64,000 bases of DNA. Origin: Felis catus. Its lineage: Eukaryota. The stretch lies in contig NC_058368.1 of NCBI RefSeq assembly GCF_018350175.1, forward strand, positions 33,420,001 through 33,484,000, in the 5' to 3' direction. Each line of letters starts with the position of its first letter. Position 1 is the first letter of the stretch. Under the pieces are notes generated by a model. It did not search any database, had not been told where the DNA came from, and was given only the letters and a program-made list of their open reading frames with translations. Below, piece by piece: positions 7,685-63,783 of the stretch. The position numbers were made by a program, and so were the translations under genes.

Positions 7685-7907
7685 TTTTTTTTTTAATTTT
7701 TTTTTCAACGTTTATTTATTTTTGGGACAGAGAGAGACAGAGCATGAATGGGGGAGGGGCAGAGAGAGAGGGAGACACAGAATCTGAAACAGGCTCCAGG
7801 CTCTGAGCCATCAGCCCAGAGCCGACGCAGGGCTCGAACTCACGGACCGCGAGATCGTGACCTGGCTGAAGTCGGACGCTTAACTGACTGCGCCACCCAG
7901 GCGCCCC
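7685..7907 (-). mobile_element. Young felid SINE (SINEC_Fc-type)
   Basis: Near-consensus, CpG-rich body; TSD AATACTATG at 7674-7682 and 7908-7916. Confidence 0.97.
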
Positions 7908-8798: not shown

Positions 8799-9261
8799 TA
8801 TTCATTGAGAACTTGAAATATAAATGATACTATTTTCCCCTATCACTTTTTCAAACTAGACAGTAGTATCTGTGTCCTTAAGTTGAAGACATTCAGCCAT
8901 ATTCTGAGGTAACAGAAAATCAAATATGGTTAAAAATAAAATAATACAAGATTTCTATTATTTTTCTATCTGAGCATTAATTTATTCTTTTTTTTTGGTT
9001 TACATAAGTGATTTCCTTTTTTTTTCTATTTTTTCTTTTTTTCAATATATGAAATTTATTGTCAAATTGGTTTCCATACAACACCCAGTGCTCATCCCAA
9101 CAGGTGCCCTCCTCAATACCCATCACCCACCCTCCCCTTCCTCCAATCCCCCATCAACCCTCAGTTTGTTCTCAGTTTTTAAGAGTCTCTTATGCTTTGG
9201 CTCTCTTCCACTCTAACCTCTTTTTTTCCTTCCCCTCCCCCATGGGTTTCTGTTAAGTTTC

Positions 9262-12200
9262 TCAGGATCCACATAAGAGTGAAAATATATGGTATCTGTC
9301 TTTCTCTGTATGGCTTATTTCACTTAGCACAACACTCTCCAGTTCCATCCACGTTGCTACAAAGGGCCATATTTCATTCTTTCTCATTGCCATGTAGTAC
9401 TCCATTGTGTATATAAACCACAATTTTTTTTCCATTCATCAGTTAATGGACATTTAGACTTTTTCCACAATTTGGCTATTGTTGAGAGTGCTGCTATAAG
9501 CATTGGGGTACAAGTGCCCCTATGCATCAGTACTCCTGTATCCCTTGGGTAAATTCCTAGCAGTGCTATTGCTGGGTCATAGGTTAGGTCTATTTTTAAT
9601 TTTCTGAGGAACCTCCACACTGTTTTCCAGAGTGGCTACACCAGTTTGCATTCCCACCAAAAGTGCAAGAGGGTTCCCGTTTCTCCACATCCTCGCCAGC
9701 ATCTATAGTCTCCTGATTTGTTCATTTTGGCCACTCTGACTGGAGTGAGGTGATATCTGAGTGTGGTTTTGATTTGTATTTCCCTGATGAGAAGCGACGT
9801 TGAGCATCTTTTCATGTGCCTGTTGGCCATCCGGATGTCTTCTTTAGAGAAGTGTCTATTCATGTTTTCTGTCCATTTCTTCACTGGGTTATTTGTTTTT
9901 CGGGTGTGGAGTTTGGTGAGCTCTTTATAGATTTTGGATACTAGCCCTTTGTCCGATATGTCATTTGCAAATATCTTTTCTCATTCCGTTGGTTGCCTTT
10001 TAGTTTTGTTGGTTGTTTCCTTTGCTGTGCAGAAGCTTTTTATCTTTATAAGGTCCCGGTAGTTCATTTTTGCTTTTAATTCCCTTGACTTTGGGGATGT
10101 GTCAAGTAAGAAATTGCTGCGGCTGAGGTCAGAGAGGTCTTTTCCTGCTTTCTCCTCTAGGGTTTTGATGGTTTCCTGTCTCACATTCAGATCCTTTATC
10201 TATTTTGAGTTTACTTTTGTGAATGGTGTGAGAAAGTGATCTAGTTTCAATCTTCTGCATGATGCTGTCCAGTTCTCCCAGCACCATTTGTTAAAGAACT
10301 GTCTTTTTTCCATTGGATGTTCTTTCCTGCTTTGTTAAAGATGAGTTGGCGATACGTTTGTGGGTCTAGTTCTAGGGTTTCTATTCTATTCCATTGGTCT
10401 ATGTGTCTGTTTTTGTGCCAATACCATGCTGTCTTGATGATGACACCTTTGTAGTAGAGGCTAAAGTCTAGGATTGTGATGCCTCCTGCTTTGGTCTTCT
10501 TCTTCAAAATTACTTTGGCTATTCGGGCCTTTTGTGGTTCCATATGAATTTTAGGATTGCTTGTTCTAGTTTCGAGAAGAATGCTGGTGCAATTTTAATT
10601 GGGATTGCATTGAATGTGTAGATAGCTTTGGGTAGTATTGACATTTTGACAATATTTATTCTTCCAATCCATGAGCAGGGAATGTTTTTCCATTTCTTTA
10701 AATCTTCTTCAATTTCCTTCATACGCTTTCTATAGTTTTCAGCATACAGATCTTTTACATCTTTGGTTAGATTTATTCCTAGGTATTTTATGCTTCTTGG
10801 TGCAATTGTGAATGGGATCAGTTTCTCTATTTGCCTTTCTGTTGCTTCATTATTAGTGTATAAGAATGCAACTGATTTCTGTACATTGATTTTGTATCCT
10901 GCAACTTTGCTAAATTCATGTATGAGTTCTAGCAGACTTTTGGTGGAGTCTATAGGATTTTTCACGTATAATATCATGTCATCTGCAAAAAGTGAAAGGT
11001 TAACTTCATCTTTGCCAATTTTGATGCCTTTGATTTCCTTTTGTTGTCTGATTGCTGATGCTAGCACTTCCAACACTATGTTAAACAACAACAGTGAGAG
11101 TGGACATCCCTGTCATGTTCCTGATCTCAGGGCAAAAGCTCTCAGTTTTTCCCCGTTGAGGATGATGTTAGCTGTGGGCTTTTCATAAATGGCTTTTATG
11201 ATGTTTAAGTATGTTCCTTCTATCCCGACTTTCCTGAGGGTTTTTATTAAGAAAGGATGCTGAATTTTGTCAAAGGCCTTTTCTGCATTGATTGACAGGA
11301 TCATATGGTTCTTCTCTTTTCTTTTATTAATGCGATGTATCACGTTGATTGATTTGCGAATGTTGAACCAGCCCTGCATCCCAGGAATGAATCCCACTTG
11401 ATCATGGTGAATAATTCTTTTTATATGCCGTTGAATTCGATTTGCTAGTATCTTATTGAGAATTTTTGCATCCATATTCATCAGGGATATTGGCCTGTAG
11501 TTCTCTTTTTTTACTGGGTCTCTGGTTTAGGAATCAAAGTAATACTGGCTTCATAGAATGAGTCTGGAAGTTTTCCTTTCCTTTCTATTTTTTGGAATAG
11601 CTTGAGAAGGATAGGTATTGTGTCTACTTTAAACATCTGGTAGAACTCCCCTGGGAAGCCATCTGGTCCTGGACTCTTATTTGTTGGGAGATTTTTGATG
11701 ACTCATTCAATTTCTTCGCTGGTTATGGGTCTGTTCAAGCTTTCTATTTCCTCCTGATTGAGTTTTGGAAGCGTGTGGGTGTTTAGGAATTTGTCCATTT
11801 CTTCCAGGTTGTCCAGTTTGTTGGCATATAATTTTTCATAGTATTCCCTGATAATTGCTTGTATCTCTGAGGGATTGGTTGAAATAATTCCATTTTCATT
11901 CATGATTTTATCTATTTGGGTCATCTCCCTTTTCTTTTTAAGAAGCCTGGCTAGAGGTTTATCAATTTTGTTTATTGTTTTCAAAAAACCAACTCTTGGT
12001 TTCGTTGATCTGCTCTACAGTTTTTTTAGATTCTATATTGTTTATTTCTGCTCTGATCTTTATTATTTCTCTTCTTCTGCTGGGGTTAGGCTGTCTTTGC
12101 TGCTCTGCTTCTATTTCCTTTAGGTGTGCTGTTAGATTTTGTATTTGGGATTTTTCTTGTTTCTTGAGATAGGCCTGGATTGCAATGTATTTTCCTGTCA

Positions 12201-13334
12201 GGACTGCGTTCGCTGCATCCCAAAGCGTTTGGATTGTTGTATTTTCATTTTCGTTTGTTTCCATATATTTTTAATTTCTTCTCTAATTGCCTGGTTGACC
12301 CATTCATTCTTTAGTAGGGTGTTCTTTAACCTCCATGCTTTTGGAGGTTTTCCAGACTTTTTTCCTGTGGTTGATTTTAGGCTTCATAGCACTGTGGTCT
12401 GAAAGTATGCATGGTATGATTTCAATTCTTGTATATACTTATGAAGGGCTGTTTTGTGACCCAGTATGTGCTCTATCTTGGAGAATGTTCCATGCGCACT
12501 CGAGAAGAAAGTATATTCTGTTGCTTTGGGATGCGAGTTCAAATATATCTGTCAAGGGGCGCCTGGGTGGCGCAGTCGGTTAAGTGTCCGACTTCAGCCA
12601 GGTCACGATCTCGCGGTCCGTGAGTTTGAGCCCCACGTCAGGCTCTGGGCTGATGGCTCGGAGCCTGGAGCCTGTTTCTGATTCTGTGTCTCCCTCTCTC
12701 TCTGCCCCTCCCCCGTTCATGCTCTGTCTCTCTCTGTCCCAAAAATAAACAAACGTTGAAAAAAAAAATTTTTTAAAAAAATAAAAAAAAAAACAAATAT
12801 ATCTGTCAAGTCCATCTGATCCAATGTATCATTCAGGGCCCTTGTGTCTTTATTGACCGTGTGTCTAGATGATCTATCCATTTCTGTAAGTGGAGTGTTA
12901 AAGTCCCCTGCAATTACCACATTCTTATCAATAAGGTTGCTTATGTTTGTGAGTAATTGTTTTATATATTTTGGGGATCCTGTATTCGGCACATAGACAT
13001 TTATAATTGTTAGCTCTTCCTGATGGATAGACCCTGTGATTATTATATAATGCCCTTCTTCATCTCTTGTTACAGCCTTTAATTGAAAGTCTAGTTTGTC
13101 TGGTATAAGTATGGCTACTCCAGTTTTCTTTTGACTTCCAGTGGCATGATAAATAGTTCTTCATCCCCTCACTTTCAATCTGAAGGTGTCCTCAGGTCTA
13201 AAATGAGTCTCTTTTAGACAGCAAATAGATGGGTCTTGTTTTTTTATCCATTCTGATACCCTATGTCTTTTGGTTGGTGCATTTAGTCCATTTACATTCA
13301 GTGTTATTATAGAAAGATATGGGTTTAGAATCAT
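9262..13334 (-). pseudogene. L1 ORF2 (endonuclease/reverse transcriptase), disrupted by frameshifts, stops and a SINE
   Basis: ORF-track fragments contain LNVNGLN, GDFNTPL, LFADD and CWRGC..HFWWEC motifs. Confidence 0.95.
12556..12794 (+). mobile_element. Young felid SINE inserted in the L1 EN domain
   Basis: Near-consensus body; TSD AAATATATCTGTCAA at 12541-12555 and 12795-12809. Confidence 0.97.
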
Positions 13335-13384
13335 CGTAATGTCCGTAGTTTTTATGCTTGTAGGGATGTCTCTGGTACTTTGTC

Positions 13385-14270
13385 TCACAGGATCCCCCTT
13401 AGGATCTCTTGTAGGGTTGGTTTAGTGGTGATGAATTCCTTCAGTTTTTGTTTGTTTGGGAAGACCTTTATCTCTCCTTCTATTCTAAATGACAGACTTG
13501 CTGGGTAGAGGATTCTCGGCTGCATATTTTTTCTGTTCATCACATTGAAGATTTCCTGCCATTCCTTTCTGGCCTGCCAAGTTTCACTAGAGAGATCCGT
13601 CACGAGTCTTATCAGTCTCCCTTTATATGTTAGAGCATGTTTATCCCTAGCTGCTTTCAGAATTTTCTCTTTATCCTTGTATTTTGCCAGTTCCACTATG
13701 ATGTGCAGAAGATCGATTCAAGTTACATCTAAAGGGAGTTCTCTGTGCCTCTTGGATTTCAATGTCTTTTTCCTTCCCTAGATCCGGGAAGTTCTCAGCT
13801 ATTATTTCCTCAAGTACACCTTCAGCACCTTTCCCTCTCTCTTCCTCCCCTGGAATACCAATTATGCGTAGATTATTTCTCTTTAGTGCATCACTTAGTT
13901 CTCTAATTTTCCCCTCATCCTCCTGGATTTATCTCTCTTTTTCTCAGCTTCCTCTTTTTCCATAATTTTATCTTCTAGTTCACCTATTCTCTCCTCTGCC
14001 TCTTCAATCCGAGCTGTGGTTGTCTCCATTTTCTTTTGCAGTTCATTGATAGCATTTTTTTAGCTCCTCCTGACTGTTCCTTAGTCCCTTGATCTCTGTA
14101 GCAATAGATTCTCTGCTGTCCTCTATACTGTTTTCAAGCCCAAGGATTAATTTTATGACTATTATTCTAAATTCACTTTCTGTTATATTGTTTAAATCAT
14201 TTTCAATCATTTCATTAGCTGTTGTTATTTCCTGGAGATTCTTCTGAGGGGAATTCTTCCGCTTGGTCAT
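13385..14270 (-). pseudogene. L1 ORF1 (RNA-binding protein), frameshifted
   Basis: MTKRKNSPQKNLQE N-terminus and PRILYPASLSF...LQEILRGIL C-terminus lie in separate fragments. Confidence 0.93.
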
Positions 14271-16576
14271 TTTGGATAGTCCCTGGTGTGGTGAGAACCT
14301 GCAGGGCACTTCCCCTGTGCTGTGGTGTATAACTGGAGTTGGTGGGCGGGGCCGCAGTCAGACCTGATGTCTGCCCCCAGCCCACCGCTGGGGCCACAGT
14401 CAGACTGGTTTGTGCCTTCTCTTCCCCTCTCCTAGGGGTGGGGTTCACTGTGGGGTGGCGTGGCCCGTGTGGGCTACTTGCACACTGCCAGACTTGTGGT
14501 GCTGCAGATCTGGCGCATTACCTGGGGTGGATTGGCAACGTGCATGGGGGCGGGAGAGGCAGGCTCAGGTCTCTTATCCTTCGGGGATCTGCTTCAGTGA
14601 TAAGCTTTGGGAGGGGCCCTGTGGCACTAGGAGGGAGTCAGACCCGAGGCTGGAGGGATGGGTCTGCAGAAGCACAGCATTGGGTGTTTGCGCAGAGCGA
14701 GCAAGTTCCCTGGCAGGAACTGGTTCCCTTTGGGATTTTGGCTGGGGGATGGGTGAGGGAGATGGCTCTGGCGAGCGCCTTTGTTCCCCCTCCAAACTGA
14801 GCTCTGTCGACCCGGGGCTCAGCAACTCTCCCTCCCTTAGTCCTCCAGCCTTCTTGCTTTCTGAGCAGAGCTGTTAACTTATGACCTCCCAGATGCTAAG
14901 TCCCACTTGCTGTCGGAACACACTCCGTCTGGCCCCTCCACTTTTGCAAGCCAGACTCGGGGGCTCTGCTTGGCCGGTGGGCCGCCCCTCCGCCCCAGCT
15001 CCCTCCTGCCTGTCCAGGCAGCGCGCACCGCCTCTCTGCCCTTCCTACCCTCTTCCGTGGGCCTCTGGTCTGTGCTTGGCTCCGGAGACTCCATTCTGCT
15101 AGTCTTCTGGTGGTTTTTGGGGTTATTTAGGCTGGTGTAGGTGGAATCAAAGTGATCAGCAGGAAGTGCAGTGAGCCCAGCCTCCCCTACACTGCTGTCT
15201 TCCCAGGATACTCTTAATTTATTCTTTCATCACCTACTGTTGCTAGACAACTTGTTTGAGGAACACATGACAGACATTAAACAAATATAAACAGGAAATA
15301 ATATGTATCCTTACTTTGGTAGAATTTAGAATTCAATTTTAGACATAAATAAGTGAATTAAAAATTGGAAATACAGTACAGTCTACCAGAATTATTTTGT
15401 AGGTTAGAATAGATGGAATAGGTTACATTTGGATGGAATACAAAACAAAAATTACAGATAATATTATTAACTAAATCTTGAAGAATAAATAGAAGTTTCT
15501 CACATCAATAAGAAAGACAGGTAGAAATGTTCAAGTTCTGAAAGACAAAGAAAAGAGAAAAACTATTTTATATGAGTACAATATGTGAGATCAGAGGTAT
15601 AGGATACTAAGTATAAAATGAGATGAGAAGTGAAATCTATCAGAGTGTTTTAAATTCGTTAAATGGCAGTCTTTTCATGTTTTTGTCTCATGTCTCAAGA
15701 TATTCCTTGTAAAGTTATAATCTTAAAACTTTGGATAAGAAACCTATTTGGGGATCTTCTCAATTTCCAGTTTGTTGGATATTTTTCTGAGGAAAATAGC
15801 AATAGAAATTGCAAGACATGAAAGGCCCTTTACTGGGTTAGCTTAGACTACACCTACTGTATAAAGTTCACATGAAAAAGTTTTGTCCATTCATTTATTT
15901 AATCCAAATTTTTTGAGTTTACTGAGAACTAGTATAGGTAAGTGAATCTTCACCCTTACTACAGATAACATAGAAGAGTTAGACAAAATAACCGATACTG
16001 CCCATTTGTGATATAGAGAAGGAAAAGGAACTAAGACATATTGGGATTTTTATATGCACTGATTTTGCATTTTGCATAGAATAGTGCATAGAATGTACTG
16101 GGTAACTCTTAGGAAGAGCATCATTTTTATCTCCATTTATTTGCAAGGAAAACAATGTCATGGAAGTTTTGCAGTATTTGTCTTTGTTTTTACATATCTA
16201 ATTCGCTTTATACTAATTGTTTTTGCTTTTCACCAGGGATTTAAAATATGAGAAATAATTAGCAAGATTTAGTATATAAAATTAGTACAACACAGATGCA
16301 GCTAATGCCCTTTACAACATTAAAGCTTAGTGGGAAAACAAATATGTAAGTTTTATAAAATACAAAAAGTAAACTTTAAAAATAGCAAAGAGAAGAACCA
16401 CCTATCTCTGCCCCTTCGATCATGGAAAGATGCCCACAGGGAACCAGTCTTGTGCTGAGCTCTAAAGATGAATAGATGTTTCAATTCCAAACAAAAATCA
16501 GAGAAAGCACAGGAAACAGAAGGTTCAAAAACATGAACACTTGGAAACACATGGCATAATGTAAGAGGAACACGCA

Positions 16577-43500: not shown

Positions 43501-45277
43501 TATCCATTTCTTCTAGGTTGTACAATTTGTTGGCATTTAATTTTTCATAGTATTCTCTTATACTATCCTTTGCATTCCTGTGGTGTCGCGTAGTATTTCT
43601 CCACTGTCATTTCTGAATTTGATTATTTGAGTCCTCTCTTCTTTTTTTAATGAGCTTAATGGTTTATGAATTTTGTTGATCTTTTTAAAGAACCAGCTCC
43701 TGTTTTCATTGATCTGTTCTATTGGTTTTTTAGTTTCTATTTCATTTATTTCTGCTCTAATCTTTATTGTTTTCTTTCTTTTAGTGGTTTGGGGTTTTGT
43801 TTGTTCTTTTTCTAGCTCCTTTACATATAAGGTTTATTTTTTTTATTTGAGATTTTTCTTGCTTTTTGAGGTAGGCATGTATGACTATAAATTTCCCTGT
43901 TACAACAGCTTTTGCTTCATCCCAAAGATTTTGGACTGGTGTGTTTTCATTTTAATTTGCCTCTATGTAATTTTTTTTTATTTCTTCTTTGATTTCTTGT
44001 CGACCCATTTATTGTTTAGTAGCATGTTTTAATCTCTATTTACTTGTGTTCTTTTCAGGTTTTTTTCTTTGGTTGATTTCTAGTTTCATAGTATTGTGGT
44101 CAGAAAAGATGCATGTTATGACTTCAATCTTTTTAAATCTGTTGAGACTTATTTTTTGGCCCAAAATGTGATCTATTCTAGAGAATGTTCCATGTGTATT
44201 TGAAAAGAATGTATATTCTGCTGTTTGGGGATGGAATGTTTTGAATATATCTGATAGATCCATCTGGTCCAATGTGTCATTCAAAGTCGCTGTTTCCTTA
44301 TTGATTTTCTGTTTGGATGATCTATCCATTGATGTAAGTGGGGTGTTAAAGTCTGATGTTATTAACATATTACTATTGATTGTTTCTTTTATGTTTATTA
44401 GTAGCTGTTTTATGTATTTGGATGCTTTGTTGTTTGGTGCATAAATATTTACAGTCGTTTACCTTCTTGTCGGATTGTTCCCCTTATGATTACATAGTGG
44501 CCTTGTCTCGTTATAACCTTTGTTCTAAAATTTATTTTATTCAGTATTAAGTATTGTAACCCCAGCTTTCCTTGCACTTATGTTGCATGATGAAGTTTTT
44601 CTATCCCTTCACTTTCAATCTGCATGTGTCTTTAGGTCTCAAATGAGTCTCTTGAAGACAGTATATAGATGGGTCTTGCTTTTGCTTTTTTATCCACTTT
44701 GTCACCTTAAGTCTTTTTATTGGAGCATTCACATAATTCAGTTCATTTACATTCAAATAATTATGGATAGGTATGTACTTATTGCCATTATGTTACCTGT
44801 TTTACAGTTGCTTTTGCATTTCTTTTCTGCTCCTTACTTCTCTTGCTCTCTTCGATATAGCTTGATGGCTTTCTTTAGTGATATACCTAGATTCCTTATC
44901 TTTATTTTTTGTATATCTATTACTGAGTTTGATTTGTGATTACCATTAGGTGTATATGTAGCATCTTATCCATATCCCCATTCTCTATTCGGTTTTTGGT
45001 GCGTTAAGTTTGAATCTATTCTAAAAGCACTAACTTTTTATTCCTCTCCCAACCCATATTTTACGTATATGGTGTCATTTCTTACATCGTGAATCCCTTA
45101 ACTGATGTTTACAGATATACTTAATTTCCCCTACATTTTTCTGTGGAGAGTCTGTTCTACATATTTTGGGTTGTTTTCTAGGTTATTTATTCTGCTGTAG
45201 GAGTTACCTAGATACACTTACATGTGAAGAGGTGATCTTAGGATCCTCCTACTCTGTCATCTTCCCCAAAAGTCTCT
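40532..45277 (-). mobile_element. Carnivore L1 with complete but degraded ORF2, inter-ORF spacer and 5' tip; ORF1 absent
   Basis: 3'UTR at 40532; ORF2 peptides (42173-42373, 42801-43052, 44036-44368); 5' tip GGGGAAGATGACAGAGTAGGAGGATCC near 45268. Confidence 0.88.
41575..41778 (-). mobile_element. Can-SINE nested in L1
   Basis: Reverse SINEC body; GCTTTTTA at both flanks. Confidence 0.92.
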
Positions 45278-45282
45278 AAACT

Positions 45283-48005
45283 AAATTTTTTCAAAGCCAG
45301 CATTACGCTGATACTAAAGCAAGACAAAAACACTACTAAAAACAAACAAACAAACAAACAAACAAACAAAACACCCTGAAAATCCTGGATGAACACAGAT
45401 GCAAAAAATAGTCATCAAAATACTAGCAGGCCAATCCAATACCACAATAAAGTCATCATAAACATGACTAGTAGTATTTATCCCTGCAAAACAGGACTGG
45501 TTCAACGTACAAAGGTAATGTTATGTTCCACATTAACAAAGTGAAGGAAAAATAATTACAAGATTGTCTCAATAGAGCAAAAACAATAAAATTCCACATC
45601 CTTTCATGATAAAAACTCTCAGCGAGCTAGTAATAGAAGAAAGTCACTACAACATAATAATGGCCATAAATGAGAAGTCCAAAGATAACAGATTTCTCAT
45701 CAGTGAACAACTGAAAGCTTTTCCTCAAAGATCAAGAAAAAGTAAGAATGATTATTCTTGCTACTTCTATTCAACATAGTAGTGAAAATCCTACCCACAA
45801 CAATTAGATAAGAATAAAATAAAATGCATTCAAATCAGAATAGAGGAAGTAAAATTATTTTCATTTTTAGATGTCATGATCTTATATGCGGAAAACCCTA
45901 AAGATTACACATTAAAAAAATACATAGCTAATAAACTCAGTAAAATTTCAGATACAATGTCATCATACAAAAATCAACTTTGTTACTAACCACTAAAAAT
46001 GAACTACCTAGAAAAAAATTTAGATCAATCCCATTTACAACAGCATCAAAAATAATAACATACTTAGGAATAAACTTAACTGAAGGTGAAAGATCTGTAC
46101 ACTGAAAACCATTAAACTAATTTGATAGAAATGAAGGAAGGCATAAATAAATGGAAATGCATTCCATATTCATGGATTGGAGAAATTAATCCTATTAAAT
46201 TGTCCACACTACCTAAAGGAATCTATGATTCAATGGAATCCCTATGAAAATTCCAAGAGCATGTGTTATATATAAAAATAGACAAAGAAATTCTAATATT
46301 CATATAGATCCACAAAAGACCCCAAATAGCCAAAACAATCTTGAGGGAAAAAACAAAAAACAGAGGTGGAGGCACTATACTTCCTGATTTTGAGATATCT
46401 TCCATAGTTACAGAAATTAGTAATTAAACCATTATGGTACTTAGTATAAAGACATATATGCACCAATGGAACAGAACAGAGATCCCAGGAATAAACCTAT
46501 ACAGATACAGTCAACTGATCTTTGACAAGGGTGCTAAGAATACACAATGGAAAAAGGATAGTCTCAACAAAAGGTGTTAGAAAAACTGGTTCTTCTTGGG
46601 CAAAACAATGAAATTGTACCTTTATCTTCCACCAGACACAAAAGACAATTCAACAAGTCCTGAAACTATAAAACTTCTAGGTGAAAATCTAGAGGGAAAT
46701 ATTTATGACCATTGGCCTTGGCAAGTAATTCTTATATATAACACCAATAGCATGCAGCCAATGAAAGCAAAATTAAACAAATGGAACTACATCAAACTAA
46801 AAAAGCTTTTGCACAGCAAAGGACAAAAGAGCGAAAAGGCAATCTATGGAATGCAAGAAAATATTTGAAAACTATATATCTGTTAAGGAGTTAATATCCA
46901 AATTTACAAGGAATTGCTTAAGTTATAACAATTATAAGTTGTTAAAAACAGATTAACATGATTCAACAAAAGGGGAGGAGGCAAAGGAATTGAATAGGTA
47001 TTTCTTTTTTTTAATGTTTATATTTATTTTTGAGACAGAAAGAGACAGAGCATGAGCAGGGGAGGAGCAGAGAGAGAGAGAGAGGGAGACACAGAATCCG
47101 AAGCAGGCTCTAGGCTCTGAGCTATCAGCACAGAGCCTGATGCAGGGCTTGCACCCACAAACCATGAGATCATGACGTGAGCTGAAGTTGGATGCTCAAC
47201 TGACTGAGCCACCCAGGTGCCCCTGAATAGATATTTCTTAAAAGAAGACTAAGAAGTAGCCATAAAAAACATATGAAAAGATGTTCAGTATCATGGATAT
47301 GCAAATCAAAACCACAATAAGATATTACTTCACCTCTTTTAGGATGGTTGTTATTTGCATAACTGAAGATGACAAGTGTTGGTCAGAATGTGGATAAATT
47401 GGAACTCTTGTGCACTATCGGTAAATATGTAAAATGGTACAGCCCATAGGTAAAACAGTATGGAGAGTGCCTCAAAAAATTAAAAAATAGAACCACTATA
47501 GGATCTAGAAATCCCACTTACAGGTTTTTATCCAAAATAATGGAAATCAAAATCTCAAAGAGATACCTTTTCTTCCGTGTTCCTTGCAACATTATTCACA
47601 GAAGCCAAGAGGTGAAAATGACTTAAATGTCCATAAATAGATGAATGGAACGTTAAATGTAGCAAAAACATACAATGGAATATTATTCAGCCGTAAAAGG
47701 GAAATAAACCCTGCAATACAGCAACACATATGAACGCGAAGCCCAGGGTGCTAAGTTAAACAAGCGTGTCATAGAAGGACAAATATTGTGTCATTCCACT
47801 TATGTGAGTTATCTCAAATAGCCAAACTCATAAAAGCAGAGATTAAGACATTGGTTGCCAGGGGCTGAGGAGGATAGGGAAATGGACAGTTGTTTTTCAA
47901 CAGATATAAAATTTCATTTATACAGATGAATAAGTTCTAGAGATCTGCTGTTCAACATTATGATTATAACTAATAATACTGTATTGTATACTCCAAAGTG
48001 TTAAA
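45283..48005 (+). mobile_element. Old L1 (L1MA/L1MB-like): ORF2 3' two-thirds plus 3'UTR
   Basis: Degenerate ASITLI.K.DK, YLGINL and CTAK motifs; 3'UTR ATGAATAAGTTCTAGAGATCTGCTG. Confidence 0.88.
47007..47223 (-). mobile_element. Can-SINE nested in L1
   Basis: TSD TGAATAG(G/A)TATTTCTT at 46991-47006 and 47224-47239. Confidence 0.95.
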
Positions 48006-55990: not shown

Positions 55991-56200
55991 GGGGGTGTCT
56001 GGATGGCTCAGTCGGTTAAGTGTCCTACTTTGGCTCAGGTCATGATCTCGCGGTACCTGGGTTCAAGCCACACTGGGCTGTGTGCTGACAGCTCAGAACC
56101 TGGAGCCTGCTTTGCATTCTCTGTCTCCCTTTCTCTCTGCCCTTTCTCCATTCCCTCTCTCTCTCTCTCTCTCTCTCTCTCAAAAATAAATAAACATTTA
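55991..56200 (+). mobile_element. Can-SINE
   Basis: TSD AAAAATGT(A/G)ATTTCT at both flanks. Confidence 0.95.
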
Positions 56201-56989
56201 AAAAATGTGATTTCTGAGTGGAAGTTGTAAGAACCATTGCTTACTTTGTCACAGTTTCTCTTCCAGACCGTAACTGTTCAGTCAGTCTATCAGAGTAAGG
56301 GCAACAATTCAGTTGCAGAGCCCCCAGCAGACTGGAAGAAGTCCTAACAATGCGAAGACATTTTAGCATTTATGGGATGCCTAATGAACATCTATATATA
56401 AAGACAGGCATTTGCAATCCATATACCACTTGGAAAAGTTTGTGCTTCTTTTTTGAGTTAGGCCCTGGGATTTAGTAAACTCAGCCATAAACAATGGGAT
56501 TAGCATGGCCAAAGTTCATTGTAGAGCAAAGGGAGATCTGCTTCAAACAAGCAAAGGCTCATTACATGTAGTTGTTAGGCATTGGCAGCTATACCTTTTT
56601 GTTGTTGTTGTTTGTAAATTTTTTATCATAGTTGCCTCCTGCCCCCAAAACTGCATTTCCTGTCTCCAAGCCAGTACCATAAGCCAGAAATTTAAATAAC
56701 AAAACTTGACCAAACTCCAAATTTAGTACTGAGTACTATTGTGTGGGGTTTGTCTTTGTTTATTGGGTTTTTGTGTTGCTTGGTTGCCCAAATTTTCTTG
56801 GATCAGTGCTGACCCACGATCTCTGAACTTCTCTCCCCACTCCTCATATTCAGTCTCTGTCTCACGATAAATTGATCTAAGGTCAGAGTGGAAATGAGCA
56901 AGTAATTCTTGGTACTTGTAGATAATTTAAATCTATAAGCTCTATCATCTTTCCAAAATAAAACTGGTGTTGGTTGTAACATAATCTCT

Positions 56990-57636: not shown

Positions 57637-57786
57637 TGATGAGGTTTTGGGGTGGTGGTGGGGTTTCAGAGCCGATGGCCGAGAAAGAATTCCTGAAGAC
57701 GTCTTTGGTACAAAAAGGTCATTTTATTAAAGCATGGAGACATGGGCAGAAAGAGCTGCGCTGAGCTTGTTAAGAATAACTGGTTA
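57637..57786 (-). mobile_element. Carnivore ERV LTR (CarLTR-like), left piece; continues from 63784
   Basis: TGATGAGG..., GAGAAAGAATTCCTGAAGACGTCTTTGG, TTTTATTAAAGC (polyA signal on the minus strand); split by the L1. Confidence 0.6.
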
Positions 57787-58714
57787 GGGAGAAGCGGCAA
57801 GATGGCGGCTTAGGAGGACGCTGGGCTCACCGCGCGTCCTGCTGATCACTTAGATTCCACCTACACCTGCCTAAATAACCCAGAAAACCGCCAGAGGATT
57901 AGCAGAACGGAGTCGCCGGAGCCAAACGCAGACGAGAGGCCCACAGAAGAGGGTAGGAAGGGCTGCGAGGCGGTGCGCGCTCCACGGACTGGCGGGAGGG
58001 AGCCGGGGCGGAGGGGCGGCTCGCCAGCCAAGCAGAGACCCCGAGTCTGGCTTGCAAAAGCGAAGGGGCCTGACGGACTGTGTTCCCACAACAAGCGCGA
58101 CTTAGTGTCTGGGAGGTCATAAGTTAACAGCTCTGCTCGGAAAGCGGGAAGGCTGGAGGACAAAGGGAGGGAGAGCTGCTGAGCCCCTGACGACAGAGCT
58201 CAGCTTGGTGGGGAACAAAGGCGCTCGCCAGCGCCATCTCTCCCGCCCATCCCCCAGCCAAAATCCCAAAGAGAACCAGTTCCTGCCAGGGAACTTGCTC
58301 GCTCCTCCCAAACACCCAACTCTGTGCTTCTGCGGAGCCAAACCTCCGGCAGCGGATCTGACTCCCTCCCGCTGCCACAGGGCCCCTCCTGAAGAGGATC
58401 ACCTAAGGAGAAGCGATTTAAGCCTGCCCCTCCTGCCCCCATGCACCTTGCCTACCCACCCCAGCTAATACGCCAGATCCCCAGCATCACAAGCCTGGCA
58501 GTGTGCAAGTAGCCCAGACGGGCCACACCACCCCACAGTGAATCCCGCCCCTAGGAGAGGGGAAGAGAAGGCACACACCAGTCTGACTGTGGCCCAGCGG
58601 TGGGCTGGGGGCAGACATCAGGTCTGACTGCGGCCCCGCCCACCAACTCCAGTTATACACCACAACACAGGGGAAGGGCCCTGCAGGTCCTCACCACGCC
58701 AGGGACTATCCAAA
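57787..58714 (+). promoter_or_regulatory. L1 internal promoter / CpG-rich 5'UTR with YY1 motif CAAGATGGCGGC (57798-57809)
   Basis: High CpG density and a perfect YY1 consensus near the 5' tip, as is typical of mammalian L1 promoters. Confidence 0.8.
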
Positions 58715-59604
58715 ATGACCAAGCGGAAGAATTCCCCTCAGAAGAATCTCCAGGAAATAACAACAGCTAATGAGCTGATCAAAAAGGATTTAAATAATAT
58801 AACAGAAAGTGAATTTAGAATAATAGTCATAAAATTAATCGCTGGGCTTGAAAACAGTATACAGGACAGCAGAGAATCTCTTGCTACAGAGATCAAGGGA
58901 CTAAGGAACAGTCACGAGGAGCTGAAAAACGCTTTAAACGAAATGCATAACAAAATGGAAACCACCACAGCTCGGCTTGAAGAGGCAGAGGAGAGAATAG
59001 GTGAACTAGAGGATAAAGTTATGGAAAAAGAGGAAGCTGAGAAAAAGAGAGATAAAAAAATCCAGGAGTATGAGGGGAAAATTAGAGGACTAAGTGATAC
59101 ACTAAAAAGAAATAATATACGCATAATTGGTATCCCAGAGGAGGAAGAGAGAGGGAAAGGTGCTGAAGAGGTACTTGAAGAAATAATAGCTGAGAACTTC
59201 CCTGAACTGGGGAAGGAAAAAGGCATTGAAATCCAAGAGGCACAGAGAACTCCCTTCAGACGTAACTTGAATCGATCTTCTGCACGACATATCATAGTCA
59301 AACTGGCAAAATACAAGGATAAAGAGAAAATTCTGAAAGCAGCAAGGGGTAAACGTGCCCTCACATATAAAGGGAGACCTATAAGACTCGTGACTGATCT
59401 CTCTTTTGAAACTTGGCAGGCCAGAAAGAATTGGCACGAGATTTTCAGGGTGCTAGACAGAAAAAATATGCAGCCGAGAATCCTTTATCCAGCAAGTCTG
59501 TCATTTAGAATAGAAGGAGAGATAAAGGTCTTCCCAAACAAAAACTGAAGGAATTTGTCACCACTAAACCAGCCCTACAAGAGATCCTAAGGGGGACCCT
59601 GTGA
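58715..59604 (+). pseudogene. L1 ORF1p (coiled coil/RRM/CTD); a 4-bp deletion near 59538 truncates it at 277 aa
   Basis: CCCAAACAAAAACTG versus CCCAAACAAACAAAAACTG in the minus copy; the natural C-terminus KEFVTTKPALQEILRGTL* ends at 59604 in another frame. Confidence 0.93.
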
Positions 59605-59654
59605 GACAAAGTCCCAGAGACATCACTACAAGCATAAAACATACAGACATCACA

Positions 59655-62600
59655 ATGACTCTCAACCCGTATCTTTCTATAATAAAACTGAATGTAAATG
59701 GATTAAATGCACCAACCAAAAGACATAGGGTATCAGAATGGATAAAAAAACAAGACCCATCTATTTGCTGTCTACAAGAGACTCATTTTAGACCTGAGGA
59801 CACCTTTAGATTGAGAGTGAGGGGATGGGGAACTATTTATCATGCCACTGGGTGTCAAAAGAAAGCTGGAGTAGCCATACTTATATCAGACAAACTAGAC
59901 TTTAAATTAAAGGCTGTAACAAGAGATGAAGAAGGATATTATATAATAGTTACAGGGTCTATCCATCAGGAAGAGCTAACAATTATAAATGTCTATGCGC
60001 CGAATACCGGAGCCCCCAAATATATAAAACAATTACTCATAAACATAAGCAACCTTATTGATAAGAATGTGGTAATTGCAGGGGACTTTAACACCCCACT
60101 TACAGAAATGGACAGATCATCTAGACACACGGTCAATAAAGAAACAAGGACCCTGAATGACACATTGGATCAGATGGACTTGACAGATATATTTAGAACG
60201 CTGCATCCCAAAGCAACAGAATATACTTTCTTCTCGAGTGCTCACGGAACATTCTCCAAGATAGATCACATACTGGGTCACAAAACAGCCCTTCATAAGT
60301 TGACAAGAATTGAAATTATACCATGCATACTTTCAGACCACAATGCTATGAAGCTTGAAATCAACCACAGAAAAAAGTCTGGAAAACCTCCAAAGGCATG
60401 GAGGTTAAAGAACACCCTACTAACGAATGAGTGGGTCAACCAGGCAATTAGAGAAGAAATTAAAAAATATATGGAAACAAATGAAAATGAAAATACAACA
60501 ATCCAAACGCTTTGGGACGCAGCGAAGGCAGTCCTGAGAGGAAAATACATTGCAATCCAGGCCTATCTCAAGAAACAAGAAAAATCCCAAATACAAAATC
60601 TAACAGCACACCTAAAGGAACTAGAAGCAGAACAGCAAAGGCAGCCTAAACCCAGCAGAAGAAGAGAAATAATAAAGATCAGAGCAGAAATAAACAATAT
60701 AGAATCTAAAAAAAACTGTAGAGCAGATCAACGAAACCAAGAGTTGGTTTTTTGAAAACAATAAACAAAATTGACAAACCTCTAGCCAGGCTTCTCAAAA
60801 AGAAAAGGGAAATGACCCAAATAGATAAAATCATGAATGAAAATGGAATTATTACAACCAATCCCTCAGAGATACAAACAATTATCAGGGAATACTATGA
60901 AAAATTATATGCCAACAAACTGGACAACCTGGAAGAAATGGACAAATTCCTGAACACCCACACTCTTCCAAAACTCAATCAGGAGGAAATAGAAAGCTTG
61001 AACAGACCCATAACCAGCGAAGAAATTGAATCGGTTATCAAAAATCTCCCAACAAATAAGAGTCCAGGACCAGATGGCTTCCCAGGGGAGTTCTACCAGA
61101 CGTTTAAAGCAGAGATAATACCTATCCTTCTCAAGCTATTCCAAGAAATAGAAAGGGAAGGAAAACTTCCAGACTCATTCTATGAAGCCAGTATTACTTT
61201 GATTCCTAAACCAGACAGAGACCCAGTAAAAAAAGAGAACTACAGGCCAATATCCCTGATGAATATGGATGCAAAAATTCTCAATAAGATACTAGCAAAT
61301 CGAATTCAACGGCATATAAAAAGAATTATTCACCATGATCAAGTGGGATTCATTCCTGGGATGCAGGGCTGGTTCAACATTCGCAAATCAATCAACGTGA
61401 TACATCACATTAACAAAAAAAAAGAGAAGAACCATATGATCCTGTCAATCGATGCAGAAAAGGCCTTTGACAAAATCCAGCACCCTTTCTTAATAAAAAC
61501 CCTTGAGAAAGTCGGGATAGAAGGAACATACTTAAAGATCATAAAAGCCATTTATGAAAAGCCCACACCTAACATCATCCTCAACGGGGAAAAACTGAGA
61601 GCTTTTTCCCTGAGATCAGGAACACGACAAGGATGCCCACTCTCACCGCTGCTGTTTAACATAGTGCTGGAAGTTCTAGCATCAGCAATCAGACAACAAA
61701 AGGAAATCAAAGGCATCAAAATTGGCAAAGACGAAGTCAAGCTTTCGCTTTTTGCAGATGACATGATATTATACATGGAAAATCCAAAAGACTCCACCAA
61801 AAGTCTACTAGAACTGATACATGAATTCAGCAAAGTTGCAGGATACAAAATCAATGTACAGAACTCAGTTGCATTCTTCTACACTAAGAATGAAGCAACA
61901 GAAAGACAAATAAAGAAACTGATCCCATTCACAATTGCACCAAGAAGCATAAAATACCTAGGAATAAATCTAACCAAAGATGTAAAGGATCTGTATGCTG
62001 AAAACTATAGAAAGCTTATGAAGGAAATTGAAGAAGATTTAAAGAAATGGAAAGACATTCCCTACTCATGGATTGGAAAAATAAACATTGTCAAAATGTC
62101 AATACTACCCAAAGCTATCTACACATTCAATGCAATCCCAATCAAAATTGCACCAGCATTCTTCTTGAAACTAGAACAAGCAATCCTAAAATTCATATGG
62201 AACCACAAAAGGCCCCGAATAGCCAAAGGAATTCTGACGAAGAAGACCAAAGCAGGAGGCATCACAATCCCAGACTTTAGCCTCTACTACAAAGCTGTCA
62301 TCATCAAGACAGCATGGTATTGGCACAGAAACAGACACATAGACCAATGGAATAGAATAGAAACCCCAGAACTAGACCCACAAACATATGGCCAACTCAT
62401 CTTTGACAAAGCAGGAAAGAACATCCAATGGAAAAAAGACAGCCTCTTTAACAAATGGTGCTGGGAGAACTGGACAGCAACATGCAGAAGGTTGACACTA
62501 GACCACTTTCTCACACCATTCACAAAAATAAACTCCAAATGGATAAAGGACCTAAATGTGAGACAGGAAACCATCAAAACCTTAGAGGAGAAAGCAGGAA

Positions 62601-63481
62601 AAGACCTCTCTGACCTCAGCCGTAGCAATCTCTTACTCGACACATCCCCAAAGGCAAGGGAATTAAAAGCAAAAGTGAATATCTGGGACCTTATGAAGAT
62701 AAAAAGCTTCTGCACAGCAAAGGAAACAACCAACAAAACGAAAAGGCAACCAACGGAATGGGAAAAGATATTCGCAAATGACATATCAGACAAAGGGCTA
62801 GTATCCAAAATCTATAAAGAGCTCACCAAACTCCACACCCGAAAAACAAATAACCCAGTGAAGAAATGGGCAGAAAACATGAATAGACACTTCTCTAAAG
62901 AAGACATCCGGATGGCCAACAGGCACATGAAAAGATGTTCAGCGTCGCTCCTTATCAGGGAAATACAAATCAAAACCACACTCAGGTATCACCTCACGCC
63001 AGTCAGAGTGGCCAAAATGAACAAATCAGGAGACTCTAGATGCTGGAGAGGATGTGGAGAAACGGGAACCCTCTTGCACTGTTGGTGGGAATGCAAATTG
63101 GTGCAGCCGCTCTGGAAAGCAGTGTGGAGGTTCCTCAGAAAATTAAAAATAGACCTACCCTATGACCCAGCAATAGCACTGCTAGGAATTTATCCAAGGG
63201 ATACAGGAGTACTGATGCATAGGGCCACTTGTACCCCAATGTTCATAGCAGCACTCTCAACAATAGCCAAATTATGGAAAGAGCCTAAATGTCCATCCAC
63301 TGATGAATGGATAAAGAAATTGTGGTTTATATACACAATGGAATATTACGTGGCAATGAGAAAAAATGAAATATGGCCTTTTGTAGCAACGTGGATGGAA
63401 CTGGAGAGTGTGATGCTAAGTGAAATAAGCCATACAGAGAAAGACAGATACCATATGGTTTCACTCTTATGTGGACCCTGA
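59655..63481 (+). pseudogene. L1 ORF2p (EN-RT-CCHC); two +1 frameshifts (A8 at 60708-60715, C at 60759), otherwise open
   Basis: EN motifs LNVNGLN, QETH, GDFNTPL and SDHN; RT FADD at 61751-61762; CWRGC...HCWWEC; 909-aa uninterrupted downstream frame. Confidence 0.95.
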
Positions 63482-63783
63482 GAAATTAACAGGAACCCAT
63501 GGGGGAGGGGAAGGAAAAAAAAAAAAAAACAGGTTAGCGTGGGAGAGAGCCAAAGCATAAGAGACTCTTAAAAACTGAGAACAAACTGAGGGTTGATGGG
63601 GGGTGGGAGGGAGGAGAGGGTGGGTGATGGGTATTGAGGAGGGCACCTTTTGGGATGAGCACTGGGTGTTGTATGGAAACTAATTTGTCAATAAATTTCA
63701 TATAAAAAAAATAAAAAATAAAAAAAATAAACAATAAAAAATAAAAATTAAAAAAAAAAGAAAAAAAAAAGAATGACTGGTTA

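What the first reader, a model, noticed from the sequence alone, without database searches (positions are those of the whole stretch)
60736..60814. Identical ORF2-splitting +1 insertion in two independent full-length L1s: a candidate tricistronic (ORF1 / EN / RT) L1 lineage
Seen: the plus copy reads AGT TGG TTT TTT GAA AAC AAT AAA CAA AAT TGA (extra C at 60759, stop 60772-60774). The minus copy reads the same (extra base at 11977, stop 11964-11962). The two copies have different TSDs and clearly different levels of decay. The older L1 at 43660-43698 is in frame here (SWFFKKINKIHKP), like the canonical SWFFEKINKIDKP. In both copies an in-frame ATG for the RT part lies 37 nt after the new stop (60812; 11924), similar to the 50-nt ORF1-stop-to-ORF2-ATG spacer. 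Ignoring the private A8 slip, this gives a ~372-aa EN-containing ORF and an 889-aa RT/CCHC ORF. Known: L1 ORF2 is translated by termination-reinitiation and acts with cis preference, so shared ORF2 frameshifts are not expected; split human ORF2 fragments have been reported to support Alu mobilisation in trans. Inference: the cause could be a propagating split-ORF2 subfamily (reinitiation, or recoding at UUU UUU GAA AAC), a trans-mobilised defective master, gene conversion between the two copies, or an assembly/polishing artefact.
Basis: partly seen in the sequence, partly recalled or inferred. Interest (0 to 1): 0.72.

Follow-up and report, generated by a model that had tools for sequence, protein, structure and literature searches.

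The report
Shared frameshift in two neighbouring L1s
Two dead L1 retrotransposon copies lying 49 kb apart carry the same rare one-base insertion, but it marks no new L1 lineage and was most likely copied from one neighbour to the other or arose twice.

Summary
Both full-length L1 copies read GGTTTTTTGAAAACAATAAACAAAATTGA, with the extra C at 60759 (+) and 11977 (-). They have different target-site duplications and clearly different decay.

Genome-wide, the in-frame 28-mer occurs 2647 times and the C-bearing 29-mer 3 times. A fourth copy has C with a shortened T run.

The four carriers are not a clade. The tree needs 4 changes, and the AU test rejects one clade at p 3e-5. It rejects the two window copies as a clade at p 0.024. 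The plus copy sits in a young clade (98.65% to in-frame relatives). The minus copy is older and is interrupted by a SINE.

The plus copy is dead in other ways: an A8 slip, and a 4-bp deletion at the ORF1 end. The "reinitiation ATG" is an ordinary internal Met codon.

What remains non-random is proximity: two of 3-4 carriers lie within 48.8 kb (p about 2-4e-4). My best explanation is a short non-allelic gene conversion under 134 bp between the two head-to-head copies (about 55%). Independent recurrence is about 27%. Read-level validation could not be done. Interest is low.

The parts
57787..63768 (+). Young full-length L1 copy (the 'plus copy'), including its A-rich tail. It is flanked by a 15-nt TSD at 57772-57786 and 63769-63783 (one mismatch).
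   Evidence: Pfam finds Transposase_22 and Tnp_22_dsRBD, Exo_endo_phos, and RVT_1 on its three ORFs. It is 98.65% identical to in-frame relatives and has an end branch of 0.0094.
58628..59548 (+). ORF1 of the plus copy (306 codons stop to stop). A private 4-bp deletion at 59538 cuts its C-terminal end.
   Evidence: In one search the dsRBD profile is matched only over positions 2-46 of 65.
59568..60755 (+). EN-containing reading frame of the plus copy (ATG at 59655). It ends at TGA 60753-60755 because of the A8 slip.
   Evidence: (Exo_endo_phos, E 3.7e-22).
60708..60715 (+). A8 run, a private +1 slip of the plus copy; all 12 young relatives have A7. The run is a slippage-prone tract, A6 to A11 among the sampled copies.
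60759..60759 (+). The extra C in the plus copy (GAAAA-C-AATAAAC).
60642..60774 (+). The largest stretch that could have been exchanged with the minus copy. It is bounded by subfamily-diagnostic sites 60641 and 60775, where each copy keeps its own allele. It narrows to 60651-60774 if the minus-private C at 60650 counts.
60722..63481 (+). RT/Cys reading frame of the plus copy (919 codons stop to stop). The first ATG at 60812 is an ordinary internal Met codon of ORF2.
   Evidence: (RVT_1, E 1.8e-46).
8991..15213 (-). Older, decayed full-length L1 copy (the 'minus copy'). It is flanked by a perfect 14-nt TSD at 15227-15214 and 8990-8977.
   Evidence: End branch 0.026; best identity 95.9%.
11977..11977 (-). 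The extra C in the minus copy, followed by TGA at 11964-11962 and ATG at 11924.
12541..12794 (.). SINE-like insertion with a T-rich or A-rich end inside the minus copy's ORF2. It is absent from all 60 other aligned copies.
   Evidence: It matches other short repeats of the window, for example 55992-56205 at 78%.
43660..43698 (-). The homologous site in a much older L1, in frame (SWFFKKINKIHKP).

Best explanation
These are two independently inserted, dead L1 copies of different ages. They lie head to head, with their 5' ends 42.6 kb apart and the two C sites 48.8 kb apart.

The +1 C in the EN-RT linker of ORF2 is not inherited from a common C-bearing master. It is a rare variant that arose once in one copy. 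It was then most likely copied into the other by a short non-allelic (ectopic) gene conversion, or by heteroduplex repair that transferred only the one-base loop. The tract is shorter than 134 bp.

Neither copy needs to express a split ORF2, and nothing here propagates.

Shown: rarity, absence of a clade, different subfamilies, independent insertions, significant proximity, and the bound on the tract.

Inferred: that conversion, rather than a second independent mutation, put the C in the second copy. The direction of transfer is also inferred.
For: Rarity:
- The C-bearing 29-mer occurs 3 times and the in-frame 28-mer 2647 times.
- The in-frame 32-mer occurs 2456 times.
- Relaxed 19-mers add only one more true carrier, on C13, which also has T5. 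The other 4 of 8 hits are unrelated contexts.

Not a clade:
- In a 61-row tree (4 C, 27 A7, 30 in-frame; 3003 columns, site columns removed) the C label needs 4 changes.
- Starred branches force at least 3 changes.
- AU tests reject the two window copies as one clade (dlnL 78.4, p 0.024). They reject all four carriers as one clade (dlnL 330.5, p 3.4e-5).

Different subfamilies:
- The plus copy has the young allele at 51 of 57 diagnostic sites.
- The minus copy has the old allele at most of those it covers.
- This includes 60621, 60641, 60775 and 60878, which flank the C.

Independent insertions: the TSDs differ and the flanks do not match.

Proximity: two of 3-4 carriers lie within 48.8 kb, p 1.2e-4 to 4.2e-4. 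Only a local process explains this.

Literature: two reviews state that non-allelic conversion between retroelement copies rises with proximity and identity (passages read in PMC8230782 and PMC6598467).
Against: - The C is the only marker. In the 3-kb alignment it is the only rare variant the two copies share.
- In the remaining 5' and 3' parts, compared with only 6 relatives, the only other shared rare states are a CpG G>A at 58441 and a poly-A length difference.
- The tract must stop within 16 bp downstream (60775) and 118 bp upstream (60641). That is short for typical tracts.
- The reviews put the main range of Alu-Alu conversion at about 10 kb or less; here the distance is 48.8 kb.
- C18 and C13 carry the same C in unrelated copies, so the mutation can recur.
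- No outgroup or orthologous locus and no reads could be examined.
Confidence: 0.55

Rival explanations
1. Independent recurrence. The same C arose twice, once in each copy (or in the plus copy's source), and the closeness of the two copies is coincidence. This could happen through A6>A7 slippage followed by A>C, or through a direct, possibly hairpin-templated, insertion at TTTTTTGAAAAAA.
For: - The tree forces at least 3 origins for 4 carriers, so the change does recur.
- The +1 A7 slip at the same run is common: 93 copies in the 27-mer context.
- Sister variants with C at run positions 6 and 7 exist once each.
- No second marker supports a conversion tract.
Against: - The per-copy frequency outside the window is about 2 in roughly 2750.
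- The young plus copy has only about 1% private change, so a second hit in a neighbour is very unlikely.
- Two of 3-4 carriers within 48.8 kb has p 1.2e-4 to 4.2e-4.
- At run position 5 no G or T variants occur, so this is not generic decay of A7.
Confidence: 0.27
2. Assembly or polishing artefact. The C in one or both copies is not in the real DNA.
For: - No read-level check could be made.
- The adjacent A8 versus A7 difference is the kind of homopolymer call that assemblers get wrong.
Against: - A non-homopolymer C inside an A run is not a typical consensus error.
- A context-driven systematic error should hit many of the roughly 2650 identical contexts, but only 3 carry it.
- The two copies differ at 4.5% of positions, so cross-mapping specifically between them is not expected.
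Confidence: 0.05
3. A C-bearing split-ORF2 source, tricistronic or trans-mobilised, produced these copies, with RT made by reinitiation or recoding.
For: - Both copies are full length with their own TSDs and share the split.
- Separate EN and RT fragments of human ORF2p, split at residues 347/348, can drive Alu retrotransposition in an assay (PMC4889948: abstract and section 32).
- ORF2 constructs with premature stops supported low Alu mobilisation (PMC4176336: abstract).
Against: - 3-4 carriers against about 2650 in-frame copies.
- The carriers are not a clade.
- The two window copies carry different subfamily alleles on both sides of the C. One persisting C lineage would therefore have had to acquire all young changes in parallel.
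- No sibling of the young copy exists.
- A7 carriers are not clustered either: 17 changes against a shuffled mean of 20.2, as low in 45 of 500 shuffles.
- The ATG is an ordinary ORF2 Met codon.
- Retrotransposition does not explain the proximity.
Confidence: 0.03
4. Inverted segmental duplication. The two copies are duplicates of a single insertion.
For: Three other nearby inverted pairs that share the A7 slip are mutual best matches at about 95%, which fits old inverted duplications.
Against: - The window pair rank only 18th and 22nd of 65 to each other.
- They have different TSDs.
- Their flanks do not match.
- They lie on opposite sides of a 99* branch.
Confidence: 0.01

Closest known systems
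Full-length, non-intact L1 copies (the 'FLnI-L1' class of L1Base 2)
   Same: - ORF1 (Transposase_22), EN (Exo_endo_phos) and RT (RVT_1), an A-rich tail and TSDs are present.
- Several private frameshifts make both copies incompetent.
- L1Base 2's table row for cat, as I read the passage, lists 1 fully intact, 0 ORF2-intact and 8075 full-length non-intact L1s (PMC5210629).
   Different: Nothing essential. The only unusual point is that two neighbours share one rare lesion.
Non-allelic (ectopic) gene conversion between dispersed retroelement copies, as described for neighbouring Alus
   Same: - A derived variant is shared by two physically close copies.
- The sharing disagrees with their phylogeny and is limited to a short stretch.
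- Reviews report a rate that depends on distance and identity (PMC8230782 and PMC6598467, passages).
   Different: - A single marker only.
- 48.8 kb apart, against the roughly 10 kb or less range quoted for Alus.
- About 95% identity.
- Inverted orientation.
- No pre-conversion state observed.
Experimentally split ORF2p (the BAR assay) and natural premature-stop ORF2 loci in human
   Same: The break lies in the EN-RT linker. It is close to the 347/348 split used in the assay. It leaves an EN-containing ORF and an RT/Cys ORF.
   Different: Those are overexpression assays for Alu mobilisation in trans. Here there is no evidence of expression, of RT translation, or of any progeny.

Membership tests
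LINE-1 (L1) retrotransposon, full-length copy | ORF1 with an L1 ORF1p domain | tested here: met
   Plus copy: Transposase_22 (E 1e-25) and Tnp_22_dsRBD (E 1.5e-14).
LINE-1 (L1) retrotransposon, full-length copy | ORF2 with an APE-type endonuclease and a reverse transcriptase | tested here: met
   Exo_endo_phos (E 3.7e-22) on 59568-60752 and RVT_1 (E 1.8e-46) on 60722-63478. They lie on two frames because of the A8 slip and the C.
LINE-1 (L1) retrotransposon, full-length copy | A-rich 3' tail and target-site duplication | tested here: met
   a 15-nt TSD with 1 mismatch (plus) and a perfect 14-nt TSD (minus).
Propagating split-ORF2 (tricistronic) L1 subfamily | Many insertions carry the split | tested here: not met
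   3 C-bearing 29-mers and 4 C-bearing 22-mers, against 2647 in-frame 28-mers and 2456 in-frame 32-mers. Counts cover only copies whose 22-33-nt context is otherwise intact.
Propagating split-ORF2 (tricistronic) L1 subfamily | The carriers form one clade of related, preferably young, insertions | tested here: not met
   4 changes for 4 carriers, with at least 3 forced by starred branches. AU p 0.024 for the window pair and 3.4e-5 for all four.
Propagating split-ORF2 (tricistronic) L1 subfamily | Features adapted to translating the downstream RT ORF (a new start or a recoding signal) | tested here: not met
   The ATG at 60812 is the Met of [11 protein letters not shown] and is present in in-frame copies as well. 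In the plus copy a TAG at 60719-60721 closes the RT frame just after the A8 run.
Propagating split-ORF2 (tricistronic) L1 subfamily | Purifying selection on both halves within the lineage (dN/dS) | not tested
   There is no lineage on which to measure it.
Non-allelic gene conversion tract | Derived state shared by paralogues against their phylogeny, within a contiguous stretch bounded by unconverted markers | tested here: inconclusive
   One shared marker only, the C. The bounds are 60641 and 60775.
Non-allelic gene conversion tract | Physical proximity of donor and acceptor beyond chance | tested here: met
   p 1.2e-4 to 4.2e-4.
Non-allelic gene conversion tract | Pre-conversion state seen at the orthologous locus or as a polymorphism | not testable with these tools
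   No related genome is held for this assembly (header).

The most novel reading that the evidence does not exclude
The young plus copy was born with the C. That is, a young C-bearing source with a split ORF2 was retrotransposed at least once, by trans-complementation or by reinitiation at the Met 37 nt downstream. Its landing 49 kb from an older carrier would then be coincidence.
Probability: 0.03. Interest if true: 0.45.

Novelty: already known. Interest (0 to 1): 0.12.

Why it matters
The value is mainly as a caution. An identical frameshift in two independently inserted L1 copies looks like a lineage marker. Here a simple genome-wide count and a tree show that it is not. Close copies can share rare lesions through local exchange or recurrence. 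Subfamily calls, source-element inference and claims of 'unusual coding architecture' should therefore not rest on one shared indel. If the conversion reading is right, this is an example of a very short exchange between inverted L1s nearly 50 kb apart. That is ordinary in kind.

Tried and rejected
1. Read support. The look-up of sequencing runs listed 24 runs. Two hold 20 of 20 sampled words: X1, which may be the source sample, and X15. The word shares were never laid and are not used as evidence.

2. Independent assemblies. A scan of metagenome contigs for the C-bearing 27-mer gave 0 matches.

3. Earlier notes of this scan. Nothing by place or by words.

4. More conversion markers in the outer 5' and 3' parts of the elements. 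Only a CpG G>A at 58441 and a poly-A length difference were shared.

5. Young alleles in the minus copy as a sign of plus-to-minus conversion.
- 61311 and 61585 are CpG sites.
- 61426 (G, shared by none of 11 near relatives) is a lone non-CpG candidate, with a plus/minus difference at 61451 close by.
- This is too weak to count.

6. A7 carriers as a hidden +1 lineage. They are not clustered (17 changes against 20.2; as low in 45 of 500 shuffles). After rough correction for sampling (27 of 76 A7, 30 of 2456 in-frame), A7 is about three times commoner on the older side of the tree. That fits slippage accumulating with time.

7. -1 frameshifting at the A8 run to join EN and RT in the plus copy. 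It is excluded, because TAG at 60719-60721 closes the RT frame right after the run.

8. A hairpin-templated hotspot for the C (GG-TTTT-TTG-AAAA, next templated base C). This is only an idea. C occurs at run position 5 three times and at positions 6 and 7 once each, so site specificity is weak once the window pair counts as one event.

9. A link through the shared A8 in the plus and C18 copies. It is rejected: three substitutions separate them between the A run and the C, and the A run varies from A6 to A11.

Full report
**What is there**

The window holds two full-length L1 copies of one family in inverted, head-to-head orientation.

The plus copy runs from 57787 to 63768. Its 15-nt TSD is AAGAATAACTGGTTA / AAGAATGACTGGTTA.

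The minus copy runs from 15213 to 8991. Its perfect 14-nt TSD is AAAGAATAAATTAA.

BLAST of the plus region against the window aligns the two at 94.3% over 3596 bp (3' part) and 90.3% over 2405 bp (5' part). The minus copy holds an extra ~250-bp SINE-like insert. The flanks match only through short repeats. They are therefore independent insertions, not a duplication.

Pfam finds Transposase_22 and Tnp_22_dsRBD on ORF1, Exo_endo_phos on 59568-60752, and RVT_1 on 60722-63478 of the plus copy.

**The observation**

- Both copies read AGTTGGTTTTTTGAAAACAATAAACAAAATTGA, with the extra C at 60759 and 11977.
- The in-frame form has GAAAAAATAAAC at this place.
- The old L1 on the minus strand at 43660-43698 is in frame, SWFFKKINKIHKP.
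- The ATG 37 nt after the new stop exists in both copies. In the plus copy it opens an 889-codon RT frame.

Two corrections apply.
- The plus copy's A8 run is at 60708-60715. Because of it the EN frame stops at 60753-60755, and the EN and RT frames differ by two bases.
- The plus copy also has a private 4-bp deletion at the end of ORF1 and a 3-bp insertion at 59242-59244. These are among about 30 private differences in 3 kb.

So the plus copy is a young but dead copy, not an otherwise intact element. The ATG is the Met of [11 protein letters not shown], an ordinary ORF2 codon that in-frame copies also have.

**Is there a C-bearing lineage? Counts**

The window's own 2.43-Gb assembly could be searched by exact pattern.

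| Pattern | Hits |
|---|---|
| C-bearing 29-mer | 3 (two in the window, one on contig C18) |
| C-bearing 22-mer | 4 (adds a C13 copy) |
| In-frame 28-mer | 2647 |
| In-frame 32-mer | 2456 |
| Relaxed 19-mers | 3, and 8 of which 4 are unrelated contexts |

- The true carriers therefore number four.
- The C13 copy also has T5 in place of T6, so it is net in frame.
- These counts see only copies whose local context is otherwise unchanged.

**Is there a C-bearing lineage? Tree**

I aligned 3-kb loci around the site: the 4 carriers, 27 of the 76 exact A7-slip copies, and the first 30 in-frame copies on contig C1. I removed the site's own columns.

- The C label needs 4 changes for 4 rows, and well-supported branches force at least 3.
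- The plus copy lies in a 99*-supported young clade of 23 rows. It is 98.65% identical to three in-frame copies and has an end branch of 0.0094.
- The other three carriers lie on the other side, with end branches of 0.026-0.033.
- AU tests reject the two window copies as one clade (dlnL 78.4, p 0.024). They reject all four as one clade (dlnL 330.5, p 3.4e-5).
- At 57 young-versus-old diagnostic sites the plus copy is 'young' at 51.
- The minus copy is 'old' at most of the sites it covers, including 60621, 60641, 60775 and 60878 on both sides of the C.

One C-bearing master persisting from the older to the younger subfamily is therefore excluded. The young copy has no sibling: C followed by GAC is unique to it.

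**The commoner +1 change at this site**

A6 to A7 slippage is the common +1 change here.

- It occurs in 93 copies in the 27-mer context.
- It accounts for 76 of the 100 listed hits of the 33-mer search, which returned 247 hits in all at up to 3 mismatches.
- A7 carriers are scattered on the tree: 17 changes against a shuffled mean of 20.2, as low in 45 of 500 shuffles.
- They are relatively commoner among older copies. That fits decay with time, not a split-ORF2 subfamily.

Among seven-letter A/C runs, 98 copies were found: 93 are A7, 3 have C at position 5, and one each has C at position 6 and at position 7. At position 5 no G or T variant exists.

**What still needs explaining**

Two of only 3-4 carriers lie 48.8 kb apart.

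From the 100 listed in-frame positions on C1, pairs within 48.8 kb are 1.72 times commoner than under a uniform spread. With that factor, the chance that any two of 3 or 4 randomly placed carriers lie this close is 2.1e-4 to 4.2e-4.

Retrotransposition scatters copies, so a shared source does not explain proximity. A local process does.

- Duplication is excluded (see above).
- Three other nearby inverted pairs that share A7 are mutual best matches at about 95%, so they look like old inverted duplications.
- The window pair ranks only 18th and 22nd of 65 to each other.

**Conversion versus recurrence**

The remaining local process is non-allelic gene conversion.

Its tract must lie between 60641 and 60775, or 60651-60774 if the minus-private C at 60650 counts. 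It contains no other informative site, so the sequence cannot confirm it.

The C is the only rare variant shared in 3 kb. In the outer parts, compared with six relatives, only a CpG transition at 58441 and a poly-A length difference are shared.

Two reviews state that conversion between Alu copies is concentrated within about 10 kb and depends on identity (passages of PMC8230782 and PMC6598467). A 49-kb exchange between copies that are 95% identical is therefore plausible but not favoured a priori.

A second independent hit in the young copy would be expected at only a few in ten thousand. This follows from 2 carriers elsewhere among about 2750 copies, scaled by the plus copy's short branch. 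Weighing the two, I put conversion at about 0.55 and coincidence at about 0.27. This weighing is inference, not a computed likelihood.

**Artefact**

A context-driven consensus error should recur in many of the roughly 2650 identical contexts, and it does not.

I could not check reads. The 20-of-20 word shares of two runs were never laid, so they are not evidence.

**Comparison with what is known**

The copies are ordinary full-length, non-intact L1s.

The break lies in the EN-RT linker, near the 347/348 split that the BAR assay uses to show that separate EN and RT fragments of human ORF2p can drive Alu retrotransposition (PMC4889948: abstract and section 32). Human ORF2 constructs with premature stops gave low Alu mobilisation (PMC4176336: abstract).

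Nothing here shows that these two loci are expressed or that the RT half is translated.

**Verdict**

The tricistronic-lineage reading is refuted by its own proposed test. What is left is a rare lesion shared by two neighbouring dead L1s, most likely through a very short ectopic conversion. This is of a known kind and of low interest.

Noticed in passing
G000:C1:84565949(+)/84593330(-); C17:35526115(+)/35553963(-); C21:77120932(+)/77139581(-) (loci L016/L017, L072/L073, L074/L075): Three pairs of L1 copies lie 19-28 kb apart in inverted orientation and share the A7 slip. Each pair is the other's best match among 65 copies (94.7-95.1% identity). They look like old inverted duplications (palindrome-like structures), not independent insertions. 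About 0.1-0.2 such close A7 pairs are expected by chance.
   Followed up: partly
G000:C13:127315652(+)/127329414(-) (L037/L076): A fourth nearby inverted A7 pair, 13.8 kb apart, is not sister (ranks 33 and 43 of 65; 92.5% identity): one young copy and one old copy. It resembles the window pair but involves the common A7 slip, so chance sharing is plausible.
   Followed up: partly
G000:C13:74159241 (L010): This copy carries the same C together with a T5 run in place of T6, so the local frame is restored ([11 protein letters not shown]). It is an old, decayed copy, so this is probably two unrelated slips.
   Followed up: partly
window 60708-60715 and the homologous run in other copies: The A run 45 nt upstream of the C is a strong slippage site. 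Lengths from A6 to A11 occur among the 44 copies of 66 where it could be parsed. The plus copy and the C18 carrier both have A8.
   Followed up: yes
window 12541-12794: A SINE-like element with a long T/A-rich end is inserted in the ORF2 of the minus L1. Related short repeats occur at many places in the window, for example 55992-56205, 7700-7907 and 47006-47216.
   Followed up: no
window 59344-59456 (plus coordinates): The minus copy has no aligned bases at 15 consecutive young/old diagnostic sites in this stretch at the ORF1 end. This suggests a deletion, or a poorly alignable segment, in the older copy.
   Followed up: no
G000:C31:32.77-35.17 Mb and contig C47: Five A7 carriers lie within 2.4 Mb on C31, and 17 of the 93 A7 carriers lie on C47. 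This may reflect L1-rich or ampliconic regions.
   Followed up: no
window 61426: The minus copy has the 'young' G at a non-CpG diagnostic site where all 11 of its nearest relatives have T. It is a lone candidate for a second small exchange with the plus copy, or a parallel change.
   Followed up: partly
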